Positions 9,775 to 51,800 of a stretch of DNA of 64,000 nucleotides are shown here, in pieces. The first letter of the stretch is position 1. The number at the start of each line of letters is the position of its first letter. Under the pieces are notes generated by a model that was not told where the DNA came from, ran no database searches, and saw nothing but the letters and a program-made list of their open reading frames with translations. The position numbers and the translations under genes were made by a program. The stretch lies in IMG/VR virus record IMGVR_UViG_3300029310_000003; one strand, written 5' to 3'. This stretch comes from a virus.

Positions 9775-9786
9775 TCTTTATCCCCC

Positions 9787-10227
9787 TCAAAATGGCAGAT
9801 CCAGTCCGCTTTCATCGATCTGCGTGAAAACCTCCTCGACCTGCGTCGTCCCATTTTCTGCCATCTTCTCGTGGACCGGCGGATTCTTGCCGCTCCGGCT
9901 TTCGCCGAAATAAACGCTGTCCGCCACGACCTCGGCCTTGGAGCGCTTATTTCCGTCCTTGTCCTCAAACTTCCGGATCGTAAGCCTTCCCCTCACGATA
10001 GACATCTTGCCCTTTGTGAAGTTCCTGTCCACGAATTCCGCCGTCTTTCTCCATACAACACAGTCGATGTAGTCCGTCTCCCTCGTTCCGTCTCTGTTCG
10101 GGATATCCCGTTCCACGGCCAGTGTGAAGGACGTTACCGCGTCCCCTGCCTGCGTCCTGCGCAGCTCCGGGTCCTTTACGAACCGGCCCTGCAATAAAAC
10201 TTCATTCAGCAATTTCCAATCCTCCAT
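9787..10227 (-). CDS. ssb: single-stranded DNA-binding protein
   Basis: OB-fold pattern (GRFVKDPELRRTQAGDAVTSFTLAV...VVWRK) and an acidic C-terminal tip ending DLPF. Confidence 0.85.
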   Translation of the reverse strand: MEDWKLLNEVLLQGRFVKDPELRRTQAGDAVTSFTLAVERDIPNRDGTRETDYIDCVVWRKTAEFVDRNFTKGKMSIVRGRLTIRKFEDKDGNKRSKAEVVADSVYFGESRSGKNPPVHEKMAENGTTQVEEVFTQIDESGLDLPF

Positions 10228-20620: not shown

Positions 20621-21337
20621 TTAGGCTTGGGCGCGGTAGCGGCTGCGGATGGAGTTGATGCGGCGTTGAACTGCTGATTTGCTCATGCCGAGCGCAGAGG
20701 CAATAGCGCGGACGGTGAGACCGACTGCAAGCGCCTGTATGATCTGTCGATCGGTGTTGTCGGCGGCTGTTGCCTCGATGGCGGCGCGGATGATGGCGGC
20801 ATCTTCTGGGCTGCTGGCGGGGGCGGCTGTGACGCTTGGGAGTGCGTCTAGTGCGGTTTGATCGGCTGTGTCTCCGTCCGCGTCGCTGGCTATGATTCGG
20901 CAGCAGTTGGAGGTGTGGCGATACTCTGCGCGGGCTATGGTGTGTACGGCCTGCGTGCAGGCGGCGAAGAGAATGAATGCGAGCATGTGCGGTTCTTCGG
21001 CCTGCTCGTTGCGGGCCAGGGCCGGAGCTACGCGGGGCCAGGCTTCGGCGGCGACGGTCTGCGCGTCGTCGGCTGTGCGCATCCATGCCGTGTCAGCGCT
21101 GCGGCCTGTAGCTTCGGCGCGGCCTTTGACGGTCCACGCCATTCTCTGCAATGCGGTATACTGTTCCTCACCGCTCATATTCTCCCACTCACGGCGGACG
21201 CTCTGCGCGGCTCTGGCGGCCTCGTGGGCGGCTTTCAGGCATAATGCGAACTGGGCGCGGCTGCGCGTCTCTGGGAACTCTGCGACGGTGGCGCGGTAGA
21301 GGCTCCACGCCTTGCGCATGATCTGGCTTTTGTTCAT
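20621..21337 (-). CDS. sigma70 region-4-like / LuxR-type HTH protein
   Basis: C-terminal DRQIIQALAVGLTVRAIASALGMSKSAVQRRINSIR. The N-terminal two thirds are unrecognisable. Sits in a GC-rich block. Confidence 0.55.
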   Translation of the reverse strand: MNKSQIMRKAWSLYRATVAEFPETRSRAQFALCLKAAHEAARAAQSVRREWENMSGEEQYTALQRMAWTVKGRAEATGRSADTAWMRTADDAQTVAAEAWPRVAPALARNEQAEEPHMLAFILFAACTQAVHTIARAEYRHTSNCCRIIASDADGDTADQTALDALPSVTAAPASSPEDAAIIRAAIEATAADNTDRQIIQALAVGLTVRAIASALGMSKSAVQRRINSIRSRYRAQA

Positions 21338-21433: not shown

Positions 21434-21610
21434 TCAGAAGCTCGGCTGTAGCTTGATCTCCCAACGGCCACAAATGTCGCCTGCGGCGTTTTTCTCGGCC
21501 TTTTTCAGGGCCTTTTCGATTGCTGCCGCTTTGTTGGGTGCGCTCACGGTAAATGCTTGGTGCTTGCCGCCATTATCCACGCAGCGGAATGCGAACTTGT
21601 AGCTGCTCAT
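21434..21610 (-). CDS. small hypothetical protein
   Basis: MSSYKFAFRCVDNGGKHQAFTVSAPNKAAAIEKALKKAEK... ATGA overlap with the upstream stop. Confidence 0.45.
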   Translation of the reverse strand: MSSYKFAFRCVDNGGKHQAFTVSAPNKAAAIEKALKKAEKNAAGDICGRWEIKLQPSF

Positions 21611-21837
21611 GCTCTCACCTCCCCGACGGTGAATTCTCCGGCCCATGCCTGCAAGATGCTGCCGTGCTCCATGACGGCGGTGATCCAGCCGCTGACGTTC
21701 GCGGCCTTGCGGCAGCGGATGATCTGCCCGCGTCCGGCGTTGTAGTCGATTCGCAGGCCCTCGGCGGATGCGGCGCGGATCTCTTCGGGCGTGTGCCACT
21801 GCGGGCGGTCCGTGGGACTAATGTTGATCTTCTGCAT
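21607..21837 (-). CDS. hypothetical protein
   Basis: 76-aa ORF in the operon. Confidence 0.45.
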   Translation of the reverse strand: MQKINISPTDRPQWHTPEEIRAASAEGLRIDYNAGRGQIIRCRKAANVSGWITAVMEHGSILQAWAGEFTVGEVRA

Positions 21838-21893: not shown

Positions 21894-22652
21894 TCAGATG
21901 ATGTACAGTGTGCCGTTGATCTCGGCGCTGATTGCTTCCTGCTGCATCTCGTCTTTGATCTGCTGGGCCAGTGTCAGAACGTCCGGCAGGCGTTCGCGGA
22001 GCTGGTCGGCGGTGCAGGCGGCGTATACGATGGTCACGGCCTCACGGATCAGCCTGGCGGACTCGCTGAGCCAATAGCCAGCGCTTTGCTGGGCGGTTGC
22101 GCCGCCGAACCAACCGCAAAACTCGCGCGCGACGCGTTCGACCTGCGCGGCGTTGTCGGTGGCGTGGTTGATGTCCTGCGTGCCGGGTACGTAGAGCGCG
22201 ACGCGCTGCGGGAGAGTCACGGCTCCGGCCTGCTGCATGATCTCGGTGGTGTCCTGCACTTCCTGCGCGGGTGCTTCCTGCTCCTGCGGCGCGGGCGGCG
22301 CGTACTTGCTCATAGCCTGCGCAAGCTGGTTGATGTGCGCGGGGTGGATTTCTGCGGGTTGGTAGATGCTCTTTGCTTCCAGCTCGTCACGGGTCGCGGC
22401 GGTCTCGATGGTGGCGGCCCACTCGCGGGAGCTGGGCCAGATTCTGCCGTCCCACTCGCCGACGGTGTTCACGATTTCAGCGATTGCTTCGCGGGCGGTA
22501 TCGTATCCGATCTGCTCCACGATAGCGGCGACGGTCTCGGCGGGGGTCCGGTCGCTGGTTTCGCAGTAGATGTTTACCACGGTTTTGATGTTCGCGCGGG
22601 TGGTCTTGATCTGCTCGCGGCGGGCGGTGATCTCGGTTGCATTCATTTTCAT
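21894..22652 (-). CDS. hypothetical protein (first gene leftward of the divergent control region)
   Basis: 252 aa, A/E/Q-rich. No motif I can name with confidence. Confidence 0.5.
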   Translation of the reverse strand: MKMNATEITARREQIKTTRANIKTVVNIYCETSDRTPAETVAAIVEQIGYDTAREAIAEIVNTVGEWDGRIWPSSREWAATIETAATRDELEAKSIYQPAEIHPAHINQLAQAMSKYAPPAPQEQEAPAQEVQDTTEIMQQAGAVTLPQRVALYVPGTQDINHATDNAAQVERVAREFCGWFGGATAQQSAGYWLSESARLIREAVTIVYAACTADQLRERLPDVLTLAQQIKDEMQQEAISAEINGTLYII

Positions 22653-22713
22653 ATTGGTTTCTCCTTTCCCTTGCGGGGCGTTCGTTGTTTCATTTGATGG
22701 CTTTATTATATAT

Positions 22714-22877
22714 ATGATTAATCATATTGTCAAAACAGCGTTTTAGTTATGATTAATCGTATTTTACTATATGATTAACCGCATTGTATCCTTGAATAGT
22801 TCGGGATTTCCATCTTTTCGTGGATTTTTCGTGTTAATCATACATTTTGCGAAAAGTTCACCAAATGTTAATCGCAT
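22714..22877. promoter_or_regulatory. operator array: five ATGATTAAYC sites
   Basis: Perfect palindrome ATGATTAATCAT at 22714-22725. Related sites at 22749-22760 and 22771-22782. Inverted copies at 22831-22841 and 22867-22877. Confidence 0.55.
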
Positions 22878-22897
22878 ATTTTGTTCAATTCGACAGT

Positions 22898-22925
22898 GGT
22901 ACATAAAGTCAAAACCCGGTAGAAT
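22898..22925 (+). promoter_or_regulatory. GGGACA-N16-TAGAAT-type promoter (variant GGTACA)
   Basis: GGTACA-16 nt-TAGAAT, 35 nt upstream of the ATG at 22961. Confidence 0.45.
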
Positions 22926-22960
22926 AAAAAATAAAATCACCCAGATCGGGGGCATACAAT

Positions 22961-23260
22961 ATGAGCATCAAAAACCCAAACAGTGCGAAGACGGACGCGG
23001 AGCGTCGCGCACAAAATAAGTGGGAGCAGGCAAACCGCGTGACGCTGGGCGTGCGCCTGAGCAAGGCAGACGGCGAAGCGTTCCGGGCGTGGTGCGCGGC
23101 GCGTGGTCAGACGGTCAACGCGGCGCTTTCGTCCTACGTCGCGGACTGTCTGCGGGGGTCCGCTTTCCCGGATCAGGCCGCGCCGGAAAATTCCCCAGCT
23201 TCGCAAAAAACCGGAGCCGCCGAAGCTCCGAAAATTCCGGCCGAAGATTCCGGGGACTGA
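22961..23260 (+). CDS. possible ribbon-helix-helix (CopG/MobC-like) protein
   Basis: VTLGVRLSKADGEAFRAWCAARGQTVNAALSSYVADCL shows a strand-helix-helix pattern with a disordered P/A-rich tail. Confidence 0.4.
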   Translation: MSIKNPNSAKTDAERRAQNKWEQANRVTLGVRLSKADGEAFRAWCAARGQTVNAALSSYVADCLRGSAFPDQAAPENSPASQKTGAAEAPKIPAEDSGD

Positions 23261-23334
23261 ACAGCCGCTTTCCAAAAACTCCGGGGCCTGACGGCCTGAA
23301 CAGCGCTGCCGGAAAATCCGGGGAAAATACAGAA

Positions 23335-23367
23335 CAGCGTCCGAGAAAAACTCGGGCGCTGTTTTTT
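23335..23367 (+). terminator. rho-independent terminator
   Basis: CAGCGTCCGAG-AAAAA-CTCGGGCGCTG followed by TTTTTT. Confidence 0.6.
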
Positions 23368-23377
23368 GCGCTTGAGC

Positions 23378-23405
23378 GGGACAAAAGCAGAAAACGGAGC
23401 AGAGT
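23378..23405 (+). promoter_or_regulatory. GGGACA-N16-CAGAGT promoter-like motif
   Basis: Exact GGGACAAA, then CAGAGT after 16 nt. ATG at 23448. Confidence 0.5.
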
Positions 23406-23447
23406 ATAAATCAGAAACAAAATCACACCGAACGGAGGAACTTCAAA

Positions 23448-23939
23448 ATGACGAATAAAGAGCTTGGCAGCGCGATCCGCGCGACACTGAAAACGGCAGG
23501 CTATGCACCGCGTGATATATCGGTCCGTGTCCGGGACTGCGGCTACAGCACGAGCGCGAGCGTGACGATCAAGAACCCGGAAATCCGCCGGGAAAGCGTG
23601 GAGCGCCTGCTTTCCAAATTTGAGAGCATCGACCGCGACTATGCGACGGGCGAAATTCTGGCAGGCGGCAACTGCTACTTATTCGTAGACTACGCGGACG
23701 GAATTTTCGACGTACCGGCGCAGGAGATGGCAACGACGGCAGCGGGCATTCTCCGGGAAAAACGGGAATGCATCCGCATTTTCGACGGTCTTTACCTCTG
23801 CAACATCCACGGGCGCACGGAGCTTCGCCAGCAGAACGGCAGCGGAAGCTTTTCACGTCAGATCGGCGGCTTTTCGCTTCTGAATGAGCTGTGCATTGCC
23901 ATGTATAAGTATGCAAAATTCGGGACCATAGCGCCCTGA
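23448..23939 (+). CDS. LPD29-like domain protein
   Basis: KELGSAIRATLKTAGYAPRDISVRVRDCGYSTSASVTIKNPEI resembles the large-polyvalent-protein-associated domain 29. Recognised from memory only. Confidence 0.4.
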   Translation: MTNKELGSAIRATLKTAGYAPRDISVRVRDCGYSTSASVTIKNPEIRRESVERLLSKFESIDRDYATGEILAGGNCYLFVDYADGIFDVPAQEMATTAAGILREKRECIRIFDGLYLCNIHGRTELRQQNGSGSFSRQIGGFSLLNELCIAMYKYAKFGTIAP

Positions 23940-24014
23940 CGGTGCGGCATGCGAACCAAAAAAACCAGAAAAACCAAGGAAAACGCAGAATCCGGCAAAA
24001 CCAGAAAAAGCAGA

Positions 24015-24042
24015 AAGCCGTCCCATTCGGGGCGGCTTTTTT
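24015..24042 (+). terminator. rho-independent terminator
   Basis: AAGCCGTCCC-ATTC-GGGGCGGCTT followed by TTTT. Confidence 0.6.
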
Positions 24043-24130
24043 GCGTCCGGATGTACAAAAAACCACTTACACGGCCTGCTATGCTGGGATCATGGGGCCC
24101 CGCAAAAAATGAAAAAAGTCCGAAATCGGC

Positions 24131-24158
24131 GGGACAAATCCGGATTTCCGTGCAGAAC
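24131..24158 (+). promoter_or_regulatory. GGGACA-N16-CAGAAC promoter-like motif
   Basis: Exact motif. ATG at 24198. Confidence 0.5.
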
Positions 24159-24197
24159 AAAAACTGTAAAGAAATCACCCAAAAAGGAGACAAAACC

Positions 24198-24299
24198 ATG
24201 AAGCCTGAAACTTTCAAAACGATCATTCGCGGATTTCTGCTGACCGTTCTTTTCATCGTGATCTTCAGCGCGGACGCGCTGATCGAGTACATTTTCTGA
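24198..24299 (+). CDS. 33-aa hydrophobic peptide
   Basis: MKPETFKTIIRGFLLTVLFIVIFSADALIEYIF. RBS AAGGAGA. Has its own motif promoter. Confidence 0.4.
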   Translation: MKPETFKTIIRGFLLTVLFIVIFSADALIEYIF

Positions 24300-24373
24300 G
24301 GGAGGAAAAAATCATGACCGTCTATTCCTGGGAAATTTCCGAGCAGGAGATCGAATAAAAATCTGAAATTTCC

Positions 24374-24401
24374 GGGACAAATCCGAAAAACCCGGCAGAA
24401 C
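24374..24401 (+). promoter_or_regulatory. GGGACA-N16-CAGAAC promoter-like motif
   Basis: Exact motif. ATG at 24435. Confidence 0.5.
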
Positions 24402-24434
24402 AGTCCATAGAACAGAAACAGGAGGAACCCCCCA

Positions 24435-25079
24435 ATGAAAAATTTCGAGACCATCGCCAAAACCATTGAAAACCAGCTGAATTCCGGAAATTCCCGTATG
24501 ACCATCTGTACGCAGAACGAATTCGGCGGCGTGTATTTTCTGCACGTCACCATGACGGGCGCAAAGATCGAGCCGTATGCGCAGTACAAGGAAAGTCTCC
24601 TGCTTCTGTTCAAGAAGCGCGGAGGCCGCACGGTGTACGGGATGCGCATCTACGGCGAGAAGCCCATCGCGATTTTCAGCGGCTGGCCGGAAACGACCTA
24701 CGAGCAGCCGAAAAGCTTCTGGTGCTTTGATAAAAATCTGTTTTACGGCCTTGTGGACGGATTCCCGCAGGAGCTGAAGCTTGCGGAGGAATCGGAGCGC
24801 GTCCACCTCGCAGAAATTCAGGCGAAGGGCAAGGTCTACCGCGTCATCACGATGAACGAAGCCCGGCGCATGACCATCGCAGAATTCCAAACCGCCGACG
24901 AATTGAAAGCCGCCTTTGAATCCACGGGAGAATTCCACAGCGTATCCTGCCGGGCCGAGCTGCAAGGCGCACCGAAGCTAAAGAATTTCTGCGGGCCGAT
25001 GTACGACGGAACGGACGAAGCCGGAAATTCGGTCATCCGCTACGAATCGCGCGAGGTGTACGAAATTCTGAGCGCATAA
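24435..25079 (+). CDS. hypothetical protein
   Basis: 214 aa with RBS AGGAGGA. No motif. Confidence 0.55.
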   Translation: MKNFETIAKTIENQLNSGNSRMTICTQNEFGGVYFLHVTMTGAKIEPYAQYKESLLLLFKKRGGRTVYGMRIYGEKPIAIFSGWPETTYEQPKSFWCFDKNLFYGLVDGFPQELKLAEESERVHLAEIQAKGKVYRVITMNEARRMTIAEFQTADELKAAFESTGEFHSVSCRAELQGAPKLKNFCGPMYDGTDEAGNSVIRYESREVYEILSA

Positions 25080-25103
25080 AATTGAAAGAATTCACGGGAA
25101 AGC

Positions 25104-25131
25104 GGGACAAACCCCGCTTTTTCTGTAGAAC
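25104..25131 (+). promoter_or_regulatory. GGGACA-N16-TAGAAC promoter-like motif
   Basis: Exact motif. ATG at 25167. Confidence 0.5.
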
Positions 25132-25166
25132 AGAAACCAGAAAAACCAAACAAGGAGGCATTTCAA

Positions 25167-33429: not shown

Positions 33430-33670
33430 GATTAGGCAAGCAAAGGATTGGCAGCGAACAGAAGTGGGACGCAAAGCAGAGCAAAGGCAAAGCAAAGTAC
33501 TGTGGCGCGGGGCAAAGGCAATGCTAGGACAAGCTGGGCAGAGCAAAGGCAGAGTTGCGCAGAGTCACGCAGAGTTGCGCAGAGTTGTGAACAGCAAAGG
33601 ATACGCATGGCCGTGCGCGGATACGATCAGCAAAGCAACGACAAAGCGGCGCATAGTAAGGCAAAGGCAA
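33430..33670. repeat. purine-rich iteron-like repeat field
   Basis: At least 7 copies of GCAAAGG(C/A), plus 4 tandem GCAGAGTYRC units at 33549-33588. Strong G+A strand bias and non-coding. Confidence 0.7.
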
Positions 33671-33711
33671 AAATCAAAAGACAGCAGAAACCATTCCGGA
33701 ACGCATCCAAA

Positions 33712-33744
33712 TGTGCAAAAAACATTTGCGGCGTTTGGTACAAT
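33712..33744 (+). promoter_or_regulatory. TGTACAAAAAACATTTG-type promoter (copy S4) of the tyrosine integrase
   Basis: CAAATG-TGTGCAAAAAACATTTG-N10-TACAAT. ATG at 33768. Confidence 0.5.
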
Positions 33745-33767
33745 AAAATCAGAAAGGACGGAAACAG

Positions 33768-34853
33768 ATGAGCTTCCCCAAAGCGTATGAAAAATTTCGG
33801 TCGGCCATGATCGCCTACGAAGATAACCTCCGGGCGTTGGGACGTTCCGGAGTCACGATCAAAAATCAGGAACAGATCTTCAAAAATTTCTCCGGCTTCC
33901 TTCTGGAAAACAAATTGTGGGATCATGAGGAGGGCTTTCCGGAGATCCTCGCATGGCGCGACCAGATGCGCCGGGACGGCAAAAAACCGTCCACCATCAA
34001 GCAGTATCTGACCGTCCTTTCTGCCATGTACAATTTCGCCAGCTCCGAAGAACTCGGCGAAAACCGCTGGTACGACCGGAATCCCGTCGCAAAGCTCCTC
34101 ATGCCGGATACGCGAAAGCTCGACAAGCGACCGTATGAGCAATTTTTGACCGACGAACAGGTCATGCTTCTCTGGCGAAATAACCCTCCCGCGAAAACCG
34201 TGGAAAGCCCGAAATTCTGGCCGCGAAATTACGCCATCGTCATTTTGCTTCTGACAACGGAGCTTCGCAACAGTGAGCTTCTGGCGCTGACGCCTGCGGA
34301 TCTCGACTGGGAAAATTCCGAGCTGTACGTCGAGCACGGCAAGGGCGATAAATTCCGTCCGGTCGAATTCCCGCCGCTTGCGCAGACCGCCGTCCGGCTG
34401 TATCTTCGCAGCGGACTGCGTCCGGCGGCCGCAGGCGACCATGACCCGCTTTTTGGCACGGAGGCAACCAAGGAATTCAAGGGAACCAATCGGGGCGCAG
34501 AATGGCACGCAGGCACACGTCAGTGGCTTTCGGACGTCGTGAAGCGCCATGTAAAAACCGTGACCGGCGTGGATATGATCCGTTCGCACGATTTGCGGCA
34601 CGTCGGCGCACGGCTCGATCTCAACAGCGGCATGAGCTTTGAGGAGCTTCAGGCAAAACTCGGCCATGAATCCGTAGCGACCACGCAGATCTATTCCGGC
34701 AAGCTGACCAGCCGGAAAAACCGCCGTATGACGAAGATCGTGCAGGAGGAGAAGGAACGGCAGGCGCAGCGGAACGTCCTGCGTCTGGAAGAGTCGGGAG
34801 ATGATTTTTTCGAACAGCTCCGGCTGAAACAGCCCCGGCCGGAGATCGCCTGA
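33768..34853 (+). CDS. int: tyrosine recombinase / phage integrase family
   Basis: N-terminal SAM-like domain. HDLRHVGA (H-x-x-R) and GHESVATTQIYSG (catalytic Tyr). Confidence 0.85.
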   Translation: MSFPKAYEKFRSAMIAYEDNLRALGRSGVTIKNQEQIFKNFSGFLLENKLWDHEEGFPEILAWRDQMRRDGKKPSTIKQYLTVLSAMYNFASSEELGENRWYDRNPVAKLLMPDTRKLDKRPYEQFLTDEQVMLLWRNNPPAKTVESPKFWPRNYAIVILLLTTELRNSELLALTPADLDWENSELYVEHGKGDKFRPVEFPPLAQTAVRLYLRSGLRPAAAGDHDPLFGTEATKEFKGTNRGAEWHAGTRQWLSDVVKRHVKTVTGVDMIRSHDLRHVGARLDLNSGMSFEELQAKLGHESVATTQIYSGKLTSRKNRRMTKIVQEEKERQAQRNVLRLEESGDDFFEQLRLKQPRPEIA

Positions 34854-34905
34854 ACAAACCAGAAAAACAGAAATGATCCGGGTTTCGTCGTAAGCCCGGA
34901 GGCAC

Positions 34906-34973
34906 GGCGGAGGCAGGTGCGTCGTGGGGATAACCCACACCCCGCGATTTCGGTTCAAATCCGGATTCCGCCG
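34906..34973 (+). ncRNA. aberrant tRNA-like element A (acceptor + T-arm, no D-arm, no encoded CCA)
   Basis: GGCGGAG/TTCCGCC acceptor, T-arm TTCGG-TTCAAAT-CCGGA, and a central 8-bp stem TCGTGGGG/CCCCGCGA with a 10-nt loop. 68 nt. Confidence 0.3.
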
Positions 34974-35166
34974 CAATGCTGTGAGTTTGGGCATGGCTCA
35001 CAGCTGGTCATAACTGACCTCCTTTCTGTGAAGAAAAGCGTCACCCATGTAAGCGAAGGCGCTCACCGGAACATTTCAGAGATTCCGGTGCTCCAGGCTG
35101 GGAAGCCTGGCCATGGGTTTTCGGGAAGAACGCTCCCGCACCGGAGTAAAACGGGGAGCCATTTAT

Positions 35167-35240
35167 GTGCGTGTAGTTTAATGGCAGAACATCAGACTTC
35201 CAATCTGATGGTGGGAGTTCGATTCTCCTCACGCACTCCA
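35167..35240 (+). tRNA. tRNA-Gly (anticodon UCC)
   Basis: Full cloverleaf: GTGCGTG/CACGCAC acceptor, D GTTT-AATGGCA-GAAC, anticodon arm TCAGA-CTTCCAA-TCTGA, T GGGAG-TTCGATT-CTCCT, encoded CCA. Confidence 0.9.
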
Positions 35241-35607
35241 CATGGGTATTGCGGCGGACTCAGGGAAAGTTTTGAGGTTCCAAAGGCTTGGTGAAACGAT
35301 ATATCCGGCCATCCGCTCAATCTGTAGGTAGTGCAAGTACGACAGATTGCGAATTTAATTAGCTGGCTCCGGCTTAATGTGTGAAAAAACGGATGCGACC
35401 GATGCACCGGCGCAGGGCTGAAAAGTTCCGTGGCTTACCCTCCCGGCCTTCCGACAGTCTGCTGTGAGGCGTAAAGGATGGAAGAAAAACCGGCGTGGCG
35501 ACGCAGACCAACTTCTGCACGGAAGCGTCTAGGCGTCGAGTAACGGCGGCTCCGGAGCCGGGAGGCAGGCTGTAAAAACCAAGAAAAAAAGGCAAGGAGG
35601 AAAACAA

Positions 35608-35931
35608 ATGAGCTTGGAAATTCGCTATCTCACCAACGGCACGAAAAATGTCTACGTCGTCGCAGAGAAGGACGTGGCGCCGGTCGCGGTCCATTTCTAC
35701 AGCGAACGGGACGAAATCCCCTATCAGATCCGTAACTACGCACCGAAAGGAAAGCCAATGTTTGTCGGGCCGGATTCGGCAAGAAACCTTTTTGCAATGA
35801 AAGCCCTGTATCCGGAGCTGATCCACGAATTCTGCGACAAGCAGGAGTACGCCGGATCACCCTGCATCTTCGAGTCGTGCAGCCTCGCGGACTGGAAAAC
35901 CTGCAAATACCGCTGTACCGCAAAAATCTGA
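35608..35931 (+). CDS. hypothetical protein inside the tRNA island
   Basis: 107 aa with RBS AAGGAGGA and a Cys-rich C-terminus. Confidence 0.55.
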   Translation: MSLEIRYLTNGTKNVYVVAEKDVAPVAVHFYSERDEIPYQIRNYAPKGKPMFVGPDSARNLFAMKALYPELIHEFCDKQEYAGSPCIFESCSLADWKTCKYRCTAKI

Positions 35932-35941
35932 ATGAAATCAT

Positions 35942-36009
35942 GCGGCATTTGGCAAAGGGCAGTTACGAGCAGCTGTCCCAAGGCCGTTCGATTCGGTCAC
36001 GCCGCACCA
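35942..36009 (+). ncRNA. aberrant tRNA-like element B (acceptor + T-arm + CCA, no D-arm)
   Basis: GCGGCAT/ACGCCGC acceptor with one A-C mismatch, T-arm GGCCG-TTCGATT-CGGTC, discriminator A plus CCA. The central stem GGGCAG/CTGTCC has a 10-nt loop. 68 nt. Confidence 0.3.
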
Positions 36010-36250
36010 TCGTAAAAATCGTGTGACTAAGGTTTTCGTAGAACGCCGCGCATTTTCAAGATGCAAATCGTTCAGCTTGCCGGAGAAAGCCAACGCGTGG
36101 CAGATCCGGATGAAGTCACTTGAGAAGCCGAACTGACAAAACCGGCCGCACCGGAATCCGGTGTGAAGCGGAAACGGCAGGATGCCGCAAAGAACTGCCC
36201 GTTGGCCAGCGCGCATGGCCTCGCGTCCGGTACGTCAAGCCGGAAACGAC

Positions 36251-36326
36251 GGGCCGTTATCTCAAAGGCTAGAGCAACTCGCTCATAACGGGTAAAATCT
36301 CGGTTCGACTCCGGGACGGCCCACCA
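36251..36326 (+). tRNA. tRNA with CAU anticodon (elongator Met or Ile2/lysidine type)
   Basis: GGGCCGT/ACGGCCC acceptor, anticodon arm ACTCG-CTCATAA-CGGGT, T CTCGG-TTCGACT-CCGGG, encoded ACCA. G1:C72 argues against an initiator. Confidence 0.85.
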
Positions 36327-36354
36327 TGAAATTTTCGGGAAAGGAGGAAAAACC

Positions 36355-36627
36355 ATGAACAAGGAAGCACTTGCACAGGCCGTAGCCAATCGCACGAATA
36401 TGCCGAAGGGCGCAGCGCTGGAATCCATCGACGCGGTTTTCGAAAGCATCCGTGAAGCGCTGATCTCGCACGAGACGGTGAACATTCCGGGCTTCGGAAA
36501 ATTCGAAGCGCCGTATAAGGCGTCCAGAGTCGCAAGAAACCCGGCGACCGGCGGAACCATTTCGGTTCCTGCGCATCACGGCGTGAAATTCGCGCCCGCG
36601 AAGGCGCTGAAGGATGCCGTACATTAA
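36355..36627 (+). CDS. hup: HU-family DNA-binding protein
   Basis: MNKEALAQAVA...VNIPGFGKFEAPYKASRVARNPATGGTISVPAHHGVKFAPAKALKDAV aligns over its full length with the HU consensus. Confidence 0.9.
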   Translation: MNKEALAQAVANRTNMPKGAALESIDAVFESIREALISHETVNIPGFGKFEAPYKASRVARNPATGGTISVPAHHGVKFAPAKALKDAVH

Positions 36628-36696
36628 GGAACCTCTGAATAAATCCGGGCGAAAGCCCGGAGTACATAAACGCCAGAAAAATGAAAGGAGCAGCCC

Positions 36697-37242
36697 ATGG
36701 AACAGGAAATTCATCGCGGAGACGTATTCTGGATCGCGGATGCACAAACGGCGGTCGGCTCCGAGTACACAAAAACCCGGCCGGCCGTGATCGTGTCCAA
36801 CGAAGCAAATAACCGATACTCCGCAAATCTGGAGATCGTCTGGCTCACAACGGCCAATAAAAAGCCGCTTCCGACGCACGTCACGCTCTATTCCGCACCG
36901 CGCGTATCCGTCGCGCTTTGCGAGTGCGTCACAACGATCTCCAAGGAGCGTCTCCGGGAATATTATTGCACGCTCACGTCGGAGGAAATGGCGCATATCG
37001 ACCGTGCCATCCGCATTTCGCTGGGGCTTCCGGAGCCTGCCGAAAAACCGGAAAAAACCGCATCGTCCGAAAAAACGCCGGATGATCTCCAGCTTTCCAA
37101 CCTCCGCAGCGACTATCAGCTCCTGCTGAAAAAGCACGACGCTCTGCTTGCGCAGCAGGCCGTCTATGAGAAGATCTGCATGGCCTTCATTCCAAACTGG
37201 ACGCCGCAGGCCAAAGCCGCAGAGAACGGGAGCCGCGTATGA
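36697..37242 (+). CDS. PemK/MazF-family endoribonuclease domain with ~70-aa C-terminal extension
   Basis: RGDVFWIADAQTAVGSEYTKTRPAVIVSNE...IVWLTT...PTHVTL...CVTTISKERL, followed by a P/E/K-rich linker and a helical tail. Confidence 0.75.
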   Translation: MEQEIHRGDVFWIADAQTAVGSEYTKTRPAVIVSNEANNRYSANLEIVWLTTANKKPLPTHVTLYSAPRVSVALCECVTTISKERLREYYCTLTSEEMAHIDRAIRISLGLPEPAEKPEKTASSEKTPDDLQLSNLRSDYQLLLKKHDALLAQQAVYEKICMAFIPNWTPQAKAAENGSRV

Positions 37243-38348
37243 TCTACCTCGACCACGCAGCGACCTCTCCCCTTCTGGCCACCGCCCGCCGGGAATTTTA
37301 CCGGGCCTCGCAATTCAGCTGGGGCAACCCAAATTCCGTCCATTCCTTCGGGATCGCAGCCGCGCGGGAGCTGGAAAGAGCGCAGAGGATCGTCGCCTAT
37401 TGCCTTTCATGCAAGCCGGAACAGGTGATCTTCACCTCCTCCGCCACGGAAAGCTGCCGATTTGCCATGAACGCCATGATGTACGAATGCGGCAGCGTCC
37501 ATATTTCCAGCTTTGAGCATAAGGCCGTTTCTGCCGGATGGGAAGACAGTTTCCGCTTTTTCGGGATCAACCGCAGCACCTCCGGCTTCGCACATATCCA
37601 TACCGGCAACGAAACGGGCGAAATTTATGACCTCGCAAAAGCATTCGAGCCGTACACCGTCTGTTTTTCGGACTGCACGGCAGCCATGGGAAAAGCGCCC
37701 CTCGACTTCCGGCATGGAAAATGGTCGTACATCGCGGGCGGCGGACATAAATTCGGCGCACCCATCGGCATCGGCGTCCTGATCGCCAGAAAACCGGAGG
37801 TGATCCGAGAGCTTTTCCATCCGGCAACGCCCGCCGTTCCTCTGGCCGCAGCCCTCGCGCAGGCGCTTTTCTTCCGCACGGAGCATATCGCAGAATTTGC
37901 GGATACCGCCGGATACTTGCATGACCGCCTGATCGATGGTATCATGGAGGAAATTCCAGACGCGCAGCTGAACGGCACGAAATATCGTGGAAACGAAAAA
38001 ACACAGTCGCCCTATATCACGAGCATTTCTTTCCCAAACATCGAAAATCATGCGCTTGTTCTGCGGATGTCCGCCGACGGCCTGATGGCGTCCTCCGGAG
38101 CCGCCTGTTCCAGCGGAGAAAACGAGCCGTCTCCGGTGCTTCTGGAATCCGGCTATCCCGCCGCCCGCGCAAGGAGCGCCGTCCGCTTTTCTCTGGACTA
38201 TAAGCTCGACCCCTGCGCTTACGAATTTTCGCACGATCTTGGCATCGACCGCCGCCGGGACGAAGCCATCATCGACCACGCCGTCAAAATCGTCGCGCAG
38301 AACGTCCGGGAGCTGAAAAAATTATCTCCCGCGCGGGACAAAGCGTAA
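37239..38348 (+). CDS. class-V aminotransferase / cysteine desulfurase (NifS/IscS-like)
   Basis: IYLDHAATSPL, PLP-Lys motif GGGHKFGAPIGIGVL, and catalytic-Cys loop SSGAACSSGENEPSPVL. ATGA overlap with the MazF-like stop. Confidence 0.85.
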   Translation: MIYLDHAATSPLLATARREFYRASQFSWGNPNSVHSFGIAAARELERAQRIVAYCLSCKPEQVIFTSSATESCRFAMNAMMYECGSVHISSFEHKAVSAGWEDSFRFFGINRSTSGFAHIHTGNETGEIYDLAKAFEPYTVCFSDCTAAMGKAPLDFRHGKWSYIAGGGHKFGAPIGIGVLIARKPEVIRELFHPATPAVPLAAALAQALFFRTEHIAEFADTAGYLHDRLIDGIMEEIPDAQLNGTKYRGNEKTQSPYITSISFPNIENHALVLRMSADGLMASSGAACSSGENEPSPVLLESGYPAARARSAVRFSLDYKLDPCAYEFSHDLGIDRRRDEAIIDHAVKIVAQNVRELKKLSPARDKA

Positions 38349-38362
38349 AATACCCGTAGAAT
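38335..38362 (+). promoter_or_regulatory. GGGACA-N16-TAGAAT promoter-like motif
   Basis: Exact motif spanning the desulfurase stop. ATG at 38406. Confidence 0.5.
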
Positions 38363-40220: not shown

Positions 40221-40339
40221 ATCAAAATCCTTTCTTGACGCGTCCGAAAGAACCTGATAGAATAAATTTATCAAAGTTTCTTTTGGACTTTGGTGGTTAG
40301 AGCCGTCCGTGATCTTTGCAGGAGCAACGGGCGGTTCTT

Positions 40340-40516
40340 TTATTTTTTGACCGTGGCTTTCACCATCTGAATTCCCAAACGAATCACATCGCTCTTTGTC
40401 TTACTGAGTTTTTCACAGCAATACTCCAAATCCGACATTGTATCTCGATCTGCCAAAAATTTCACCTGTGTATCTTTCGGGTTTTCAGATTTCGGTCTGC
40501 CTGTACGGGGCGACAT
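40340..40516 (-). CDS. ribbon-helix-helix (CopG-like) regulator
   Basis: MSPRTGRPKSENPKDTQVKFLADRDTMSDLEYCCEKLSKTKSDVIRLGI. RBS AGGTGA. Confidence 0.55.
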   Translation of the reverse strand: MSPRTGRPKSENPKDTQVKFLADRDTMSDLEYCCEKLSKTKSDVIRLGIQMVKATVKK

Positions 40517-40546
40517 TTGTATCACCTACTTTCTATGTACATGTTT

Positions 40547-48863: not shown

Positions 48864-51800
48864 TCACATATTTTTCTGGATCGCCAGCGTCGCCGCAGAC
48901 CGCGCGAAATCCGCCACACTCATGCCTCGTGCGCGTCCCTCGGAGATCGTCACCCCTCCGAAGCTGTAAAAGCTGCATCCGTTCTGCTGTGTACCGACGT
49001 GGTGATCGTCATACGTCGAGCCTGCGAAAACGTTGGAATTCCGCAGATCTCCGCAGAGCGCCGCGCGCATCCGGTCCATCCCGCGCTCAAACCGCGCGTC
49101 CGCCTGCGGGACCAGAAGCATATTCTGGATGGCCCTTGTGATGTCCGGCGGCAGCACCATTTCCGGCTCCGCCGTAGCCTTGATCCCGCCGATCCCTTCG
49201 AGGATTCCGCCCCGGTCGTATACCGTGTAGACCTTTCCGTCCTTCTTCGTGATGGAGGTCGTCCCGTCGTAGTTTTTCAGCCACGACGTGCCGTCTCCGC
49301 CGGTCATTCTGGCTCCCGCCGCCTCGTAATTGAGGAAATCCAGACCCTTCTTGGAGCTGATGGTGTACCGGGAGCCGTCCTGCGCGTAGGCGTAGACCGT
49401 CCCGCTGTATTTCAGTCCGCTTCCGGAGCCGCCGGAGCCGCCGGAGCCTCCGGAGGAATCCCCACCCGGCGGCGCGTCGTACTGTCCGCCGTAATTGTAG
49501 GTGGTCTGATTTTTGTCCACCAGCTGAGACTGATACGTTCCGTCCGGATTGACGCCGATAATTTCATAAGTGCCGCCGCCTGTGACCACGCGGTCGCCCA
49601 CGGAAAGCCCGGAGGGCGCTTTTCCGTCCGCGCCGACCTTCACGATGCGGTTTGCCGTTTCGTTCACCGCATCGGAGAGCTTCGACACGTCCACGCCGAA
49701 CTGCCGGAAAATGTCCGCGTTTTCGAGAATGATCTTTTTCAGCTCCGGCGTCGCATTTTTCCAGATGTCCTGCAGGATCTCCCCGATCCCGCGCGTCTTG
49801 GCCTTGAGCGAATCGAGGAAATTGTTGTACTGCCGTTCCAGCGCGTCATACTGCGCGTTGATGGCGTCCTTCCGCGCCTCAATTTCCGCCACAGCCGCGT
49901 TGTACGCCAGATCGTCCTGAAAATCCTTGAGGTCCTTTTCAGCCTTTTCCAGAGAATCCTTCGCAGACTTGACGTTTCCCTCGTCCGCGACCCATTCCCA
50001 CTGTCCCGTCGAAGCGTTCCACTGCCGGACCGTCCGCTCGTTCTGAGCGTTCGCAAGGTCCGCCTGTGCCTTCTGAACTGCGAGAATTTTTTCCTCCAGC
50101 GTCAGCTGGTCGTCCTTTGTCTCCTTCTGCCGTTTGAGCGCGTCGAGCTGCGCGTCCAGCGCGGCCAGCTCCGCATCCCTCGCATCCTGCTGGGAGCTGA
50201 GAGAATCCTGCATCGCATCCTTCAGCTCCGAAAGCAGGTCGTCCATGCTCTTCGTCTGCTCTTTGATCTTTTTCTGCCAGTCGTACCATTCCGAGGAAAG
50301 GTCGTTGATGTCGGCCTGACTGGCTCCGATGGAGCGCATATAATCCGCCTGTGCGGAAAGCGCGTCCTGAATTTCGCGCATTTTGGCCTTCTGCGCGTCC
50401 TCGCTGGCTCCCTGCTTTTCCAGCAGCGTCAGCTCGGATTTCAGCAGCGTCACGCGTTCCTTGTGCGCTGTCAGCGTCGCATCCGACGAGCTTCCGCCAC
50501 CACCGGAGCCGGAACCCTTGGAACCGGAGCTGCCGGACTTGTTCCACGAACTTTCGCTGTAATCAAAGGAATCGTAAATCCCCTGAAGAAGCTTCTGTTC
50601 GCCCTCTTCATAGCTTCCTACCTGTCCGGTTTGAATCCATCCCTTGATGGTCCTGTCCGCGTCGGAGGATTTGATCCCGCTGATCGATGCAATGGAAGCC
50701 GCCGTTGCACCCGCCGCGCGTCCAAGCGCAACGACCTGCGCGATCTGCGCGGAAAGGTCAAGTCCCGTCTCGTTGAGCTTGATGATCTCCAGCGCCAGAT
50801 CGTAAAGCGCTTTTCCGGAGTATCCGGCATTTTCCGCAACATCGAGCAGGGAAGAAACGAATTTCGCTGCCGCCTCGTCCGCGCTGGACGAAGCGCCGAT
50901 CTGCTGCTGTGTCGCGTCCACATCCTCGAGGATCGCACTTGCCACCGCCTTGAGCGATTCTTCCGTGATCCGAAGCTGTCCGTCCTCGTCGGTCAGCATC
51001 TCCACATATTTATCACTCAGCCCGATCAGGCTCTGCAGCGTGGAGGCGGAGATATTTCCGTTGATGCGGTATTCACCGAGCGCCGCCGATACCGCCGCAA
51101 GGTCGCTTTGCTGTGTTTTCAGCGCCTTGCCGTATTCCTGAATTTTCGAGACCTTTTCAGAAGTTTTCTGATTGTTCTCATCTGTGAGCTGATTGTTCTC
51201 CTCCAGCAGCTCATTTTCGCGCCCGTAACTGTCCAGAGTCCCGTCGCGCACCGCCTGAAGCTTGTTTTCCAGCTCCGTCTGATTCGCAATGGCTGTGTTA
51301 TAATCCTCGACTGCCGACTTGACGCCGTTTATGAGCTTTTCATTGCTGGAATACTGGTTTTCGCCGAAAATTTTCGTTGCGTCCTGTTTTCCTGCATCGA
51401 TTAGTTCCTTGCGGGCTTCCAGATTTTTCTGATAGTCCTTGATAACGGCTTCTGCACTGTCCAGTTCCAGCGCACCTGCCATCTGCGAACCGTAGGTGTC
51501 CTCCGCTGCGGCAATGAGCGCCTTTTCCGCCGCGATCGTCGCAGCCTTTGCGTCGTAAAGAGCCGCCTCGAGGGCCGATTCCGTAGAGGCCCGAATTGCC
51601 TCGTCCAGACTTCCGTATTTTGCCGTCAGATCGTCTACGCTTTCCTTTTCGTATCCGAGTTTTTTCAGCAGCCGGTCCGTCGCGTCCTCGAAGTCCTTTT
51701 TGGAGCCGGCACCGGTCTCATAGGAGCTTTTCAGATCGGAATAGGTCTGGTAGAGAGACTGAATTTCCTCGGCCTCCCGAGCCGCAGCCTTTCCGGCTTC

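What the first reader, a model, noticed from the sequence alone, without database searches (positions are those of the whole stretch)
22898..38362. A conserved non-canonical promoter-like motif, (C)GGGACAAA-N13-[CT]AGA[AT]N, precedes almost every gene of the plus-strand accessory block
Exact GGGACA is followed after exactly 16 nt by CAGAAC, TAGAAC, CAGAAT, TAGAAT, CAGAGT, TAGATA or CAGATT. The GGGACA starts are at 23378, 24131, 24374, 25104, 26385, 29486, 32277, 32590 and 38335. A one-mismatch copy (GGTACA-16-TAGAAT) sits at 22898 and a first-half-only copy at 40606.

All copies are on the + strand. Each lies 35-90 nt upstream of a + strand start codon, and two lie in the 3' end of the preceding ORF. 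The spacing is that of a sigma70-family promoter, yet both hexamers deviate from TTGACA/TATAAT in the same conserved way. Textbook TTGACA-17-TATAAT promoters do exist elsewhere in the window (27615, 40547, 40934).

With equal base frequencies, GGGACAA is expected about 4 times per strand in 64 kb. Ten copies on one strand, all promoter-positioned within 17 kb, is unlikely to be chance. This implies individually promoted gene cassettes under one dedicated sigma factor or activator.
Basis: seen in the sequence. Interest (0 to 1): 0.75.

Follow-up and report, generated by a model that had tools for sequence, protein, structure and literature searches.

The report
Phage sigma-factor promoter array
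A phage of gut Clostridia-type bacteria carries about ten copies of an unusual promoter sequence in front of its accessory genes, most likely read by a sigma factor the phage encodes next door; this is a new example of a known way phages control their genes.

Summary
GGGACA-N16-YAGA occurs 9 times, all on the + strand between 23378 and 38335, against 0.18 expected. A tenth, GGTACA variant sits at 22898.

The window is an uncultured Firmicutes-type tailed phage. The motif has full promoter anatomy:
- an upstream A-tract;
- GGGACAAA;
- a 15- or 16-nt spacer;
- an invariant G followed by YAGA;
- a conserved pyrimidine-purine step 12-13 nt after the Y, the likely start site;
- a 29-67 nt leader, then a Shine-Dalgarno sequence and a start codon.

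In 34 related phage loci I found 245 copies in front of at least 34 unrelated gene families. Orthologous genes with unrelated upstream DNA keep only these two blocks.

It is driven by a perfect sigma-A promoter that sits among operator-like repeats. Motif arrays accompany sigma homologues down to 50% identity and are absent where the homologue is 40-47% identical.

Best reading: the phage sigma redirects host RNA polymerase to about ten transcription units of the accessory block. That these are promoters is near certain. That this sigma reads them is probable (about 0.65) but untested. Rivals are a host sigma-H-like factor and an activator such as the phage Spo0A-C protein.

This is a new member of a known kind.

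The parts
22898..22925 (+). P1, a variant promoter GGTACATA-N14-TAGAAT at the head of the block. Next start codon at 22961 (99-aa ORF).
   Evidence: score 14.8. The same GGTACAAA-N14-TAGAAT variant is kept at the equivalent place in relatives L190 and L192. A perfect 0A box (TTCGACA, 22889-22895) and operator-like repeats lie just upstream.
23378..23405 (+). P2, GGGACAAA-N14-CAGAGT. Next start codon at 23448 (163-aa ORF). A terminator-like hairpin plus T-run lies immediately upstream.
   Evidence: The orthologous sites in L001, L002, L008 and L187 keep both blocks.
24131..24158 (+). P3, GGGACAAA-N14-CAGAAC. Next start codon at 24198 (33-aa ORF).
   Evidence: A 33-37-aa downstream family occurs in 20 loci.
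24374..24401 (+). P4, GGGACAAA-N14-CAGAAC. Next start codon at 24435 (214-aa ORF).
   Evidence: The gene family is found in 25 loci with three to four unrelated upstream contexts, all of which keep the motif.
25104..25131 (+). P5, GGGACAAA-N14-TAGAAC. Next start codon at 25167 (399-aa DUF3560 protein).
26385..26412 (+). P6, GGGACAAA-N14-CAGAAT. Next start codon at 26464 (63 aa), probably followed by the SHOCT-domain gene 26767-27585.
29486..29513 (+). P7, GGGACAAA-N14-TAGATA. A sigma-A-like promoter follows at 29552-29581. The likely operon is an Arc-like repressor (29602-29760), a Bro-N protein (29939-30712), an ORF6N protein (30838-31692) and the Spo0A_C protein (31849-32310).
32277..32304 (+). 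P8, GGGACAAA-N14-CAGATT, inside the 3' end of the Spo0A_C gene. Next start codon at 32352 (73 aa).
32590..32617 (+). P9, GGGACAAC-N14-CAGAAC. Next start codon at 32665 (231 aa). Possibly one long unit through the tyrosine integrase (33768-34853), two tRNAs, HU (36355-36627), MazF-like (36697-37242) and an aminotransferase (37239-38348).
   Evidence: The extent of the operon is inferred.
38335..38362 (+). P10, GGGACAAA-N14-TAGAAT, inside the 3' end of the aminotransferase gene. Next start codon at 38406 (113-aa ORF of unknown function).
   Evidence: The promoter and its gene are orthologously conserved in relatives, where they can lie about 30 kb from the sigma gene.
40606..40613 (+). Half site: A-tract plus GGGACAAA but no YAGA element. 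It lies in the 730-nt gap between the Rha gene and the endolysin gene. Probably a relic or a non-functional copy.
20621..21337 (-). 238-aa divergent ECF-type sigma factor, the proposed reader of the motif. It has an extra helical N-terminus of about 90 aa, a sigma-2-like region at about 88-142, a disordered linker at 144-176 and a sigma-4 helix-turn-helix at 177-238.
   Evidence: A family profile matches E. coli sigma-E (1or7) at E=5e-7 across sigma-2 and sigma-4, and also AlgU, CnrH and SigW. Of 59 family members, 21 match Pfam Sigma70_ECF and 17 match Sigma70_r4_2. The AlphaFold model has pLDDT 72. Of its top 20 Foldseek PDB hits, 19 are ECF sigma structures and one (rank 3) is an integrative RPSH-RPOB model, all with weak E-values of 0.014 or more.
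22705..22733 (-). Consensus sigma-A promoter TTGACA-17-TATAAT. It drives the minus-strand operon 21894-22652, 21434-21799 and the sigma gene.
   Evidence: 12 of 12 matches. Its role as the sigma operon promoter is inferred from its position.
22712..22880 (.). Five operator-like repeats of the form TGATTAATCRTAT. They overlap and flank the sigma operon promoter and lie upstream of P1.
   Evidence: Read from the sequence. The pattern gives 5 matches against 0.57 expected, and four of the five matches lie in this region. The two right-hand repeats (22832, 22866) are more degenerate and were read by eye.

Best explanation
The ten sites are promoters of a class specific to this phage family. Host RNA polymerase carrying sigma-A first transcribes a minus-strand operon from a consensus promoter at 22733->22705. 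That promoter lies among operator-like repeats, so it is probably repressor-controlled. The third gene of the operon (20621-21337) encodes a divergent ECF-type sigma factor.

This sigma then directs host core polymerase to promoters with this layout: an A-tract, GGGACAAA as the -35 element, a 15-16 nt spacer, G-YAGA as the -10 element, and a start about 13 nt after the Y. These promoters head about ten transcription units of the divergently oriented accessory block (22.9-39.2 kb).

Shown: the motif, its statistics, its conservation and promoter geometry, and the sigma-like nature of the protein.
For: Statistics. Nine exact sites against 0.18 expected, all on one strand within 15 kb.

Promoter anatomy, from 139 unique sites in 34 related loci:
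- G just before YAGA in 99%;
- A at +9 in 94%;
- a pyrimidine at +12 in 97% and a purine at +13 in 99%, the usual -1/+1 pattern, placed 7 nt after the hexamer;
- two spacer classes, 15 nt (63 sites) and 16 nt (76 sites).

Of 245 instances, 217 are followed by a Shine-Dalgarno sequence and a start codon, mostly 29-67 nt downstream. They precede at least 34 unrelated protein families.

Footprint. Orthologous genes with unrelated upstream DNA keep only GGGACAAA, GYAG and the ribosome-binding site.

Not sigma-A. The G is invariant, the T expected at the last -10 position is usually absent, and canonical sigma-A promoters exist nearby for comparison.

Sigma identity.

Association of sigma with motif:
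- Every locus whose sigma is at least 58% identical, and that has upstream DNA, carries 2-5 strict copies on the strand opposite the sigma gene. Up to about 10 GGGACAA half sites lie there.
- L024, from another metagenome, has a sigma 50% identical and a different gene order. It still carries two good sites, flanking the sigma gene on the same strand.
- Twenty-seven loci with sigma homologues 40-47% identical have no site.
- The window's sigma group (at least 90% identical) mostly uses CAGA, while the 58-80% groups use TAGA.

No sign of a host regulon. A scan of 185,579 species genomes with a strict form of the motif gave 37 scattered single hits, about what chance predicts, and 4 in Firmicutes-type records (2 Lachnospiraceae, 1 Clostridiales, 1 Bacillota), not a cluster.
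Against: - There are no transcript data, so neither the start sites nor the dependence on this sigma is demonstrated.
- The co-occurrence evidence is partly circular. Most loci were fetched through the sigma gene, and all relatives belong to one phage lineage, so other genes conserved in that lineage co-occur equally well. The 252-aa gene 21894-22652 is one example.
- The CAGA/TAGA difference between sigma groups amounts to a single evolutionary event.
- Fold-search E-values are weak, and the N-terminal 90 residues match nothing known.
- Phages with sigma homologues 40-47% identical showed no alternative promoter array within 10 kb on either side. Covariation between sigma and promoter therefore could not be shown.
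- A Spo0A-C-like protein also recurs in the family.
- The motif loosely resembles sigma-H promoters.
Confidence: 0.65

Rival explanations
1. The sites are promoters read by a host alternative sigma factor. The best candidate is a sigma-H-like factor, active at the transition to stationary phase and sporulation. The phage accessory genes would then follow host physiology, and the phage sigma would have other targets.
For: From my own knowledge, the sigma-H consensus is RnAGGAwww-N11-12-RnnGAATww. It shares GGA in the upstream block, and a purine followed by two bases and GAA(T) in the downstream block. The window's G-CA-GAAC and G-TA-GAAT fit that downstream pattern. The phage family also carries Spo0A-C-like genes, which hints at a link to sporulation.
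Against: - The distance from GGA to GAA is 22-23 nt here against 20-21 nt for sigma-H.
- G at the first position and C at the fifth position of GGGAC are invariant, where sigma-H has A and W.
- Most relatives have GATA rather than GAAT.
- The motif tracks the identity class of the phage sigma.
- A strict-motif scan of species genomes gave only chance-level, scattered hits. That pattern was narrow and the host is unknown, so this point is weak.
Confidence: 0.12
2. The sites are activator-dependent promoters. A DNA-binding protein occupies GGGACAAA, and perhaps the YAGAA repeats, and recruits sigma-A polymerase to a poor -10 element. The candidate is the phage Spo0A-C-only protein (31849-32310), which lacks a receiver domain and so should be constitutively active.
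For: - The Spo0A_C domain match is strong: Pfam 1e-22, and PDB 1lq1 at 3e-15 with the SxVERAIR recognition helix kept.
- Divergent 119-aa homologues recur in related phages.
- The reverse complement of the motif, TTTGTCCC, shares TGTC with the 0A box TGTCGAA.
- G-TAGAA resembles TGTCGAA, and a second YAGAA lies 12 nt downstream in 64 of 139 sites.
- A perfect 0A box abuts P1.
Against: - The conserved recognition helix predicts binding to canonical 0A boxes. These are not enriched in the window (12 found, 11.6 expected).
- The -10-like block lacks the last-position T that sigma-A needs. Its invariant G and the two spacer classes fit recognition by a sigma better than by a single bound protein.
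- The second YAGAA coincides with the pyrimidine-purine start-site position, and its spacing of 12 nt differs from the 10 nt of tandem 0A boxes.
- The window's Spo0A_C gene itself lies downstream of P7.
- No Spo0A_C homologue was found in the 19 kb fetched for L024, which does have the motif.
Confidence: 0.12
3. The repeats are not promoters. They would instead be structural or recombination elements that mark cassette boundaries, such as hairpin or terminator remnants or recombinase sites.
For: About 12% of sites form long GC-rich hairpins spanning GGGAC and the spacer. On the opposite strand, the A-tract would read as a terminator T-run. Homology breakpoints between relatives fall within the motif.
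Against: - Across all sites, pairing is barely above a shuffled control. Stems of 6 bp or more occur in 27% of sites against 20.5%, and the mean stem is 5.2 against 4.6.
- The fixed distance to start codons, the pyrimidine-purine step, the two-block layout with 15/16-nt spacing and the strict co-orientation with downstream genes all argue for promoters.
- Rfam finds no RNA family here.
Confidence: 0.04

Closest known systems
SigN (ZpdN) of the Bacillus subtilis prophage-like plasmid pBS32 and its regulon (PMC6751061)
   Same: A sigma factor encoded on a mobile element, itself expressed from a repressor-controlled sigma-A promoter. It directs host polymerase to a set of non-canonical two-block promoters that lie almost entirely on its own element.
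   Different: - The promoter sequence differs: an example from that paper reads TTTACGTTT ... GATATAAT.
- SigN also activates its own gene, whereas no motif lies on the sigma strand in this window.
- There is no detectable sequence relationship beyond the sigma fold, and the host lineage differs.
- Here every step is inferred, while SigN was shown to work in vitro and by Rend-seq.
Ltr superfamily of late activators in phages of Gram-positive bacteria: RinA, ArpU, LtrA (Sigma70_r4), LtrB (DUF1492), LtrC (PMC3753634)
   Same: Small phage-encoded proteins, some with sigma region-4 similarity, that switch on phage genes. One of the 59 family members matched DUF1492 and three matched Phage_Gp111.
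   Different: - Ltr proteins act at a single promoter upstream of terS and turn on the morphogenesis and lysis operon.
- Here there are about ten promoters in an accessory block, and none on the structural-gene strand within the window.
- This protein has both sigma-2 and sigma-4 regions.
ECF (group 4) sigma factors and their promoters, for example E. coli sigma-E with GGAACTT-N16-TCAAA (consensus quoted from my own knowledge)
   Same: A two-domain sigma-2/sigma-4 protein. A G-rich -35 with AC at its core followed by A/T, a spacer of about 16 nt, a short -10 preceded by G, and A-rich upstream DNA.
   Different: - The recognition-helix residues differ: phage VQRRINSIR against sigma-E VRSRIFRAR in the alignment.
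- The -35 is GGGAC rather than GGAAC, and the -10 is TAGA rather than GTC or CGT.
- There is an extra N-terminus of about 90 aa.
- No anti-sigma partner was identified.
- It is encoded by a phage.
Sigma cascades of lytic Bacillus phages (SPO1 gp28, gp33/34) and the PBSX factor Xpf (from my own knowledge, not checked here)
   Same: Phage-encoded sigma factors that replace sigma-A to read classes of phage promoters with their own consensus.
   Different: Those classes drive middle or late genes essential for lytic growth. Here the targets are variable cargo genes of unknown function, plus an integrase, HU, a MazF-like protein and a Spo0A-C protein.
Portable promoter cassettes: morons of lambdoid phages and the promoter-early stem-loop modules of T4-like phages (from my own knowledge, not checked here)
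   Same: Single genes each carrying their own promoter and often a terminator, with a conserved promoter sequence at mosaic junctions.
   Different: Those cassettes use host sigma-70-type promoters. Here a promoter class specific to the phage is used.

Membership tests
Sigma-70 family, ECF-type (for the protein 20621-21337) | A C-terminal sigma-4 helix-turn-helix (region 4.2) | tested here: met
   For the window protein alone, the Sigma70_r4_2 and Sigma70_ECF hits fall below Pfam's cut-offs. Among 59 family members, 17 match Sigma70_r4_2 (best 8e-9) and 21 match Sigma70_ECF. The model shows four helices at 177-237.
Sigma-70 family, ECF-type (for the protein 20621-21337) | A sigma-2 domain (regions 2.1-2.4) joined to sigma-4 in the same order | tested here: met
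   The family profile aligns positions 97-241 to residues 45-186 of E. coli sigma-E (1or7) at E=5e-7. It also matches AlgU, CnrH and SigW. Of the top 20 Foldseek hits, 19 are ECF sigma structures and one (rank 3) is an integrative RPSH-RPOB model, but E is 0.014 or more and TM scores are low.
Sigma-70 family, ECF-type (for the protein 20621-21337) | Binds core RNA polymerase and confers promoter-specific initiation | not testable with these tools
   Needs in vitro transcription or genetics.
Bacterial two-block promoter (for the motif) | Two conserved blocks 15-18 nt apart, oriented towards and at leader distance from a downstream gene | tested here: met
   Spacers of 15 or 16 nt. In 217 of 245 instances a Shine-Dalgarno sequence and start codon follow, mostly 29-67 nt downstream.
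Bacterial two-block promoter (for the motif) | A transcription start 5-9 nt downstream of the -10 block | tested here: inconclusive
   The only evidence is a conserved pyrimidine (97%) and purine (99%) 7 nt after the hexamer. No transcript data are available.
Sigma-A (housekeeping) promoter | TTGACA / TATAAT with A at position 2 and T at position 6 of the -10 hexamer | tested here: not met
   The -35 is GGGACA. The -10 is CAGAAC or TAGATA in most sites, with an invariant G at position 3 and usually no T at position 6. Only 38335 passes the lax sigma-70 scan.
Sigma-H-type promoter | RnAGGAwww, 11-12 nt, RnnGAATww (consensus from my own knowledge) | tested here: not met
   GGA and R-nn-GAA are shared. 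However, the blocks are 1-3 nt further apart, G and C replace A and W in the first block, and most relatives have GATA.
Spo0A regulon (0A boxes) | TGTCGAA boxes, often in tandem about 10 bp apart, at the regulated promoters | tested here: not met
   TGTCGAA occurs 12 times against 11.6 expected. Only one copy (22889-22895) lies near a site. The motif shares only TGTC with the box.
Ltr late activators (RinA/ArpU/LtrA-C) | Acts at one promoter upstream of terS to switch on the morphogenesis and lysis operon (PMC3753634) | tested here: not met
   No motif lies on the minus (structural-gene) strand of the window. Whole-contig pattern scans of relatives found extra hits only at the orthologue of site 38335 and upstream of an integrase homologue. 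The terS region itself lies outside the window.

The most novel reading that the evidence does not exclude
The promoter is more than a switch. It may be a portable module of promoter, leader, gene and terminator, whose conserved 28-nt core also serves as the homologous-recombination junction through which this phage family swaps cargo genes. The family would then maintain a private 'expression slot' system that only its own sigma can read. That sigma could be coupled to host sporulation signalling through the recurrent Spo0A-C-only proteins. Supporting observations: at least 34 unrelated cargo families sit behind the same core, and homology breakpoints between relatives fall inside the promoter.
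Probability: 0.15. Interest if true: 0.6.

Novelty: new member of a known kind. Interest (0 to 1): 0.4.

Why it matters
If confirmed, this gives a defined sigma/promoter pair for an abundant, uncultured family of human-gut Clostridia-type phages. More than 280 protein clusters at 90% identity match this sigma, and about 186 clusters at 50% identity.

The promoter marks which cargo genes are switched on together, and most of them have no known function or family. The pair would also be an orthogonal expression part for Firmicutes.

It adds a case in which a phage sigma drives variable accessory genes rather than essential late genes. The principle is already established by pBS32 SigN, SPO1 and PBSX.

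Tried and rejected
1. Chance or base composition. Rejected: 0 of 100 shuffles reach 9 sites.

2. A general hairpin or terminator across the motif. Only a minority of sites form long stems, and pairing overall is barely above a shuffled control.

3. A known RNA family. Rfam finds only two tRNAs in 20-42 kb.

4. Canonical 0A boxes as the real signal. They are not enriched.

5. A different promoter array next to the sigma homologues that are 40-47% identical, as a test of covariation. Dyad enumeration found none. In those phages the sigma gene lies inside a long co-directional operon with no divergent block. Their few GGGACAA matches are coding sequence.

6. Host identification.
- No relative of the sigma was found in 185,579 species genomes.
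- No near-identical DNA was found among 50,697 deposited phages.
- The closest cultured phages are Enterocloster phages at about 19% protein identity for one structural protein.
- The sigma gene matches one unannotated human-faecal phage record at 46%.
- The host remains unknown.

7. Function of the promoter-driven genes. Pfam, NCBIfam and PHROGs give nothing except DUF3560 and an Arc-like repressor.

8. Literature search for the motif string returned nothing relevant.

9. An alignment of distant sigma relatives (A3) was too divergent for the locus search tool.

Full report
**The observation**

The pattern GGGACA-N16-YAGA matches nine times, at exactly the coordinates given. All nine are on the + strand between 23378 and 38335. 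Dinucleotide-preserving shuffles give 0.18 matches on average and never more than 2. GGGACAA alone occurs 14 times against 7.5 expected, and ten of those lie on the + strand between 23378 and 40606.

The GGTACA variant at 22898 and the half site at 40606 are as described. A position-weight scan of both strands finds nothing else above noise.

Each full site ends 33-51 nt before a start codon that has a strong GGAGG-type ribosome-binding site. The one exception is 29486, at 88 nt, where a sigma-A-like promoter lies in between.

'Almost every gene' is too strong. Ten sites serve about 25 + strand genes, although as operons they could cover nearly the whole block.

**Context**

The window is a tailed phage of a Firmicutes-type host, with 54% G+C and strong Shine-Dalgarno sequences.
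- Minus strand, 39.4-64 kb: tail and lysis genes, including the tape measure (48864-53771), an endolysin (41009-42511) and a Rha gene.
- Minus strand, 5.4-22.6 kb: replication and nucleotide genes, including SSB, a DnaC-like protein, dUTPase, an SNF2 helicase, a methylase and a PAPS reductase.
- 1.7-5.3 kb: a Cro/CI/serine-recombinase module.
- + strand, 22.9-39.2 kb: the accessory block.

The block mostly holds proteins with no family. It also holds a DUF3560 protein, a SHOCT protein, Bro-N and ORF6N proteins, a Spo0A C-terminal-domain-only protein, a tyrosine integrase, two tRNAs, HU, a MazF-like protein and an aminotransferase.

No deposited phage is close, and no species genome in GTDB holds a relative of the regulator. 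Relatives are abundant in IMG/VR, mostly in one metagenome set, and matches to human-faecal phage records point to the gut.

**Are the sites promoters?**

I fetched 34 related loci through the regulator gene. All those with upstream DNA carry the motif in several copies, on the strand opposite the regulator.

With the second block relaxed to YAG[AC] and the spacer to 15-16 nt, there are 245 instances, of which 139 are unique. Of the 245, 217 are followed by a Shine-Dalgarno sequence and a start codon, mostly 29-67 nt downstream. The downstream proteins fall into at least 34 unrelated families.

Aligned on YAGA, the profile reads as follows:
- C at -3 in 72%;
- G at -1 in 99%;
- T (86%) or C at position 0, then A, G, and A in 91%;
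- A at +9 in 94%;
- a pyrimidine at +12 in 97% and a purine at +13 in 99%.

That last pair is the usual -1/+1 signature, placed 7 nt after the hexamer. An A-tract lies 12-22 nt upstream of GGGACAAA, where an UP element would be.

Orthologous genes in different relatives often have completely unrelated upstream DNA. They keep only GGGACAAA, GYAG, the leader and the ribosome-binding site.

The two spacer classes (63 sites at 15 nt, 76 at 16 nt) fit a -35/-10 pair better than one rigid protein site.

A hairpin spanning the motif exists in about an eighth of sites but is not general. Stems of 6 bp or more occur in 27% of sites against 20.5% in a shuffled control. Rfam finds no RNA family there.

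I therefore take the promoter reading as near certain on sequence grounds, although no transcript data exist.

**Which polymerase form reads them?**

The blocks do not fit sigma-A. The first is GGGACA. The second has an invariant G at its third position and usually lacks the final T. Good sigma-A promoters occur nearby for comparison.

An exhaustive search found 186 clusters of relatives at 50% identity. A profile of 59 of them gives the following:
- It matches E. coli sigma-E at E=5e-7 across both sigma-2 and sigma-4. It also matches AlgU, CnrH and SigW.
- Twenty-one members reach Pfam Sigma70_ECF and 17 reach Sigma70_r4_2.
- The AlphaFold model has pLDDT 72. It returns ECF sigma factors as 19 of its top 20 PDB neighbours (rank 3 is an integrative RPSH-RPOB model), though with weak E-values.

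The protein is therefore a divergent ECF-type sigma with an extra helical N-terminus of about 90 residues.

**How the sigma gene is controlled**

The sigma gene is the third gene of a minus-strand operon. That operon starts at a perfect TTGACA-17-TATAAT promoter (22733->22705).

The promoter is embedded in five operator-like repeats of the form TGATTAATCRTAT, which are found almost nowhere else in the window. This suggests a cascade: repressor release, then sigma-A transcription of the sigma operon, then sigma-dependent transcription of the divergent block.

**Strength of the sigma-motif link**

Evidence for the link:
- Arrays are present wherever the sigma is at least 58% identical.
- L024, from a different metagenome, has a sigma 50% identical and a different gene order. 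It has two good sites on the same strand as its sigma gene.
- Twenty-seven loci with homologues 40-47% identical have none. Their few GGGACAA matches are coding sequence.
- The window's own sigma group prefers CAGA, whereas the 58-80% groups use TAGA almost exclusively.
- A scan of 185,579 species genomes with a strict form of the motif gave 37 scattered single hits, about what chance predicts. Four were Firmicutes-type records (2 Lachnospiraceae, 1 Clostridiales, 1 Bacillota), so nothing points to a host regulon.

Weaknesses:
- Ascertainment through the sigma gene and shared ancestry mean other lineage-specific genes co-occur equally well. The neighbouring 252-aa gene is an example.
- The CAGA/TAGA shift is one evolutionary event.
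- I could not find a different promoter array next to the distant sigma homologues, which would have shown covariation.

**Rivals**

A host sigma-H-like factor. The sigma-H consensus, quoted from my own knowledge, shares GGA and R-nn-GAA with the motif. However, the spacing is 1-3 nt longer here, two invariant bases differ, and most relatives have GATA.

An activator at GGGACAAA.
- For this rival: the phage Spo0A-C-only protein is a strong homologue of the Spo0A DNA-binding domain with the recognition helix conserved. Divergent 119-aa versions recur in relatives.
- Against it: the conserved helix predicts binding to canonical 0A boxes, which are not enriched. A sigma-A -10 element is also lacking.
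- The downstream YAGAA repeat, found in 64 of 139 sites, coincides with the likely start site.

I put these two rivals at about 0.12 each, and non-promoter readings at about 0.04.

**Comparison with known systems**

The closest documented analogue is SigN of pBS32. It is a sigma encoded on a mobile element, under a repressed sigma-A promoter, that reads non-canonical promoters confined to its own element (PMC6751061). The consensus differs, and SigN activates its own gene.

The Ltr late activators of Gram-positive phages are sigma-related, but they act at one promoter upstream of terS (PMC3753634). Here, no motif lies on the structural-gene strand in the window. Whole-contig pattern scans of relatives found extra hits only at the orthologue of site 38335 and upstream of an integrase homologue.

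The promoter layout resembles ECF promoters in general.

The finding is thus a new member of a known kind: a phage sigma with its cognate promoter class. The less usual feature is that the targets are a variable, cassette-like accessory block rather than essential late genes.

**Verdict**

Interest is moderate (0.4).

Noticed in passing
window 22712-22880: Five operator-like repeats of the form TGATTAATCRTAT, with a palindromic core TGATTAATCA. They surround a 12/12 sigma-A promoter (22733->22705) in the divergent region between the sigma operon and the accessory block. They occur almost nowhere else in the window. The repressor that binds them was not identified.
   Followed up: partly
window 31849-32310 (+); L072 3370-3864, L117 1205-1564, L151 4694-5053, L160 1495-1854: A phage-encoded protein made only of the Spo0A C-terminal DNA-binding domain, with no receiver domain (Pfam 1e-22; recognition helix SxVERAIR conserved). 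Divergent 119-aa versions (31-37% identity) recur in related phages. It could interfere with or mimic the host's master regulator of sporulation.
   Followed up: partly
window 33768-38348 (+): A tyrosine integrase is followed by tRNA-Gly(TCC) at 35167-35240, tRNA-Met(CAT) at 36251-36326, HU, a MazF-like toxin and a class-V aminotransferase. The phage also has a large serine recombinase next to its CI/Cro genes (3727-5235). The second integrase with its cargo could be a nested mobile element or a dimer-resolution system. The listed ORF 34917-35294 overlaps the tRNA and is probably spurious.
   Followed up: no
window 40275-41008: A 730-nt gap between the Rha gene and the endolysin gene. It contains the half site at 40606, several sigma-A-like promoters on both strands (40235, 40658 on +; 40465, 40575, 40962 on -) and a strong bidirectional terminator hairpin at 40969-41002. 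No convincing ORF is present, so it may encode a small RNA or be a regulatory hub.
   Followed up: no
window + strand 23257, 23296, 28512, 28808; related loci L005-L022, L187-L221: The 8-mer CTGAACAG is strongly strand-biased in relatives: 110 against 4 in one group of loci and 156 against 13 in another. This includes phages that lack the promoter motif. Its meaning is unknown.
   Followed up: no
window + strand 23971, 26427, 26789, 31758, 35576, 38365: AAACCAAG occurs six times, only on the + strand (2.25 expected on both strands). Most copies lie in A/C-rich leaders 25-90 nt before start codons, including genes that lack the promoter motif. In relatives it is 113 against 0 by strand. It may be a leader or translation element.
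   Followed up: no
L024 6681 and 10793 (+), sigma homologue at about 9561-10151 (+): This phage comes from another metagenome, and its sigma is only 50% identical. The same GGGACAAA-N14-TAGAA promoter flanks the sigma gene on the sigma strand. The upstream copy might make that sigma self-activating, unlike in the window.
   Followed up: partly
window 21894-22652 (-) and 25167-26366 (+): Weak DUF3849 and clear DUF3560 matches. From my own knowledge, these domains are known from 'polyvalent' proteins of phages and conjugative elements. This hints that part of the cargo acts in host takeover or counter-defence.
   Followed up: no
Genome-contig loci L227, L232, L235, L239, L240, L247, L252, L254, L257: Nine of the 37 chance-level hits of CGGGACAAA-N12-GGTAGATA in species genomes are in Candidatus Omnitrophota MAGs. 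That is more than their share of the collection would suggest, so it may be a repeat element in that phylum.
   Followed up: no
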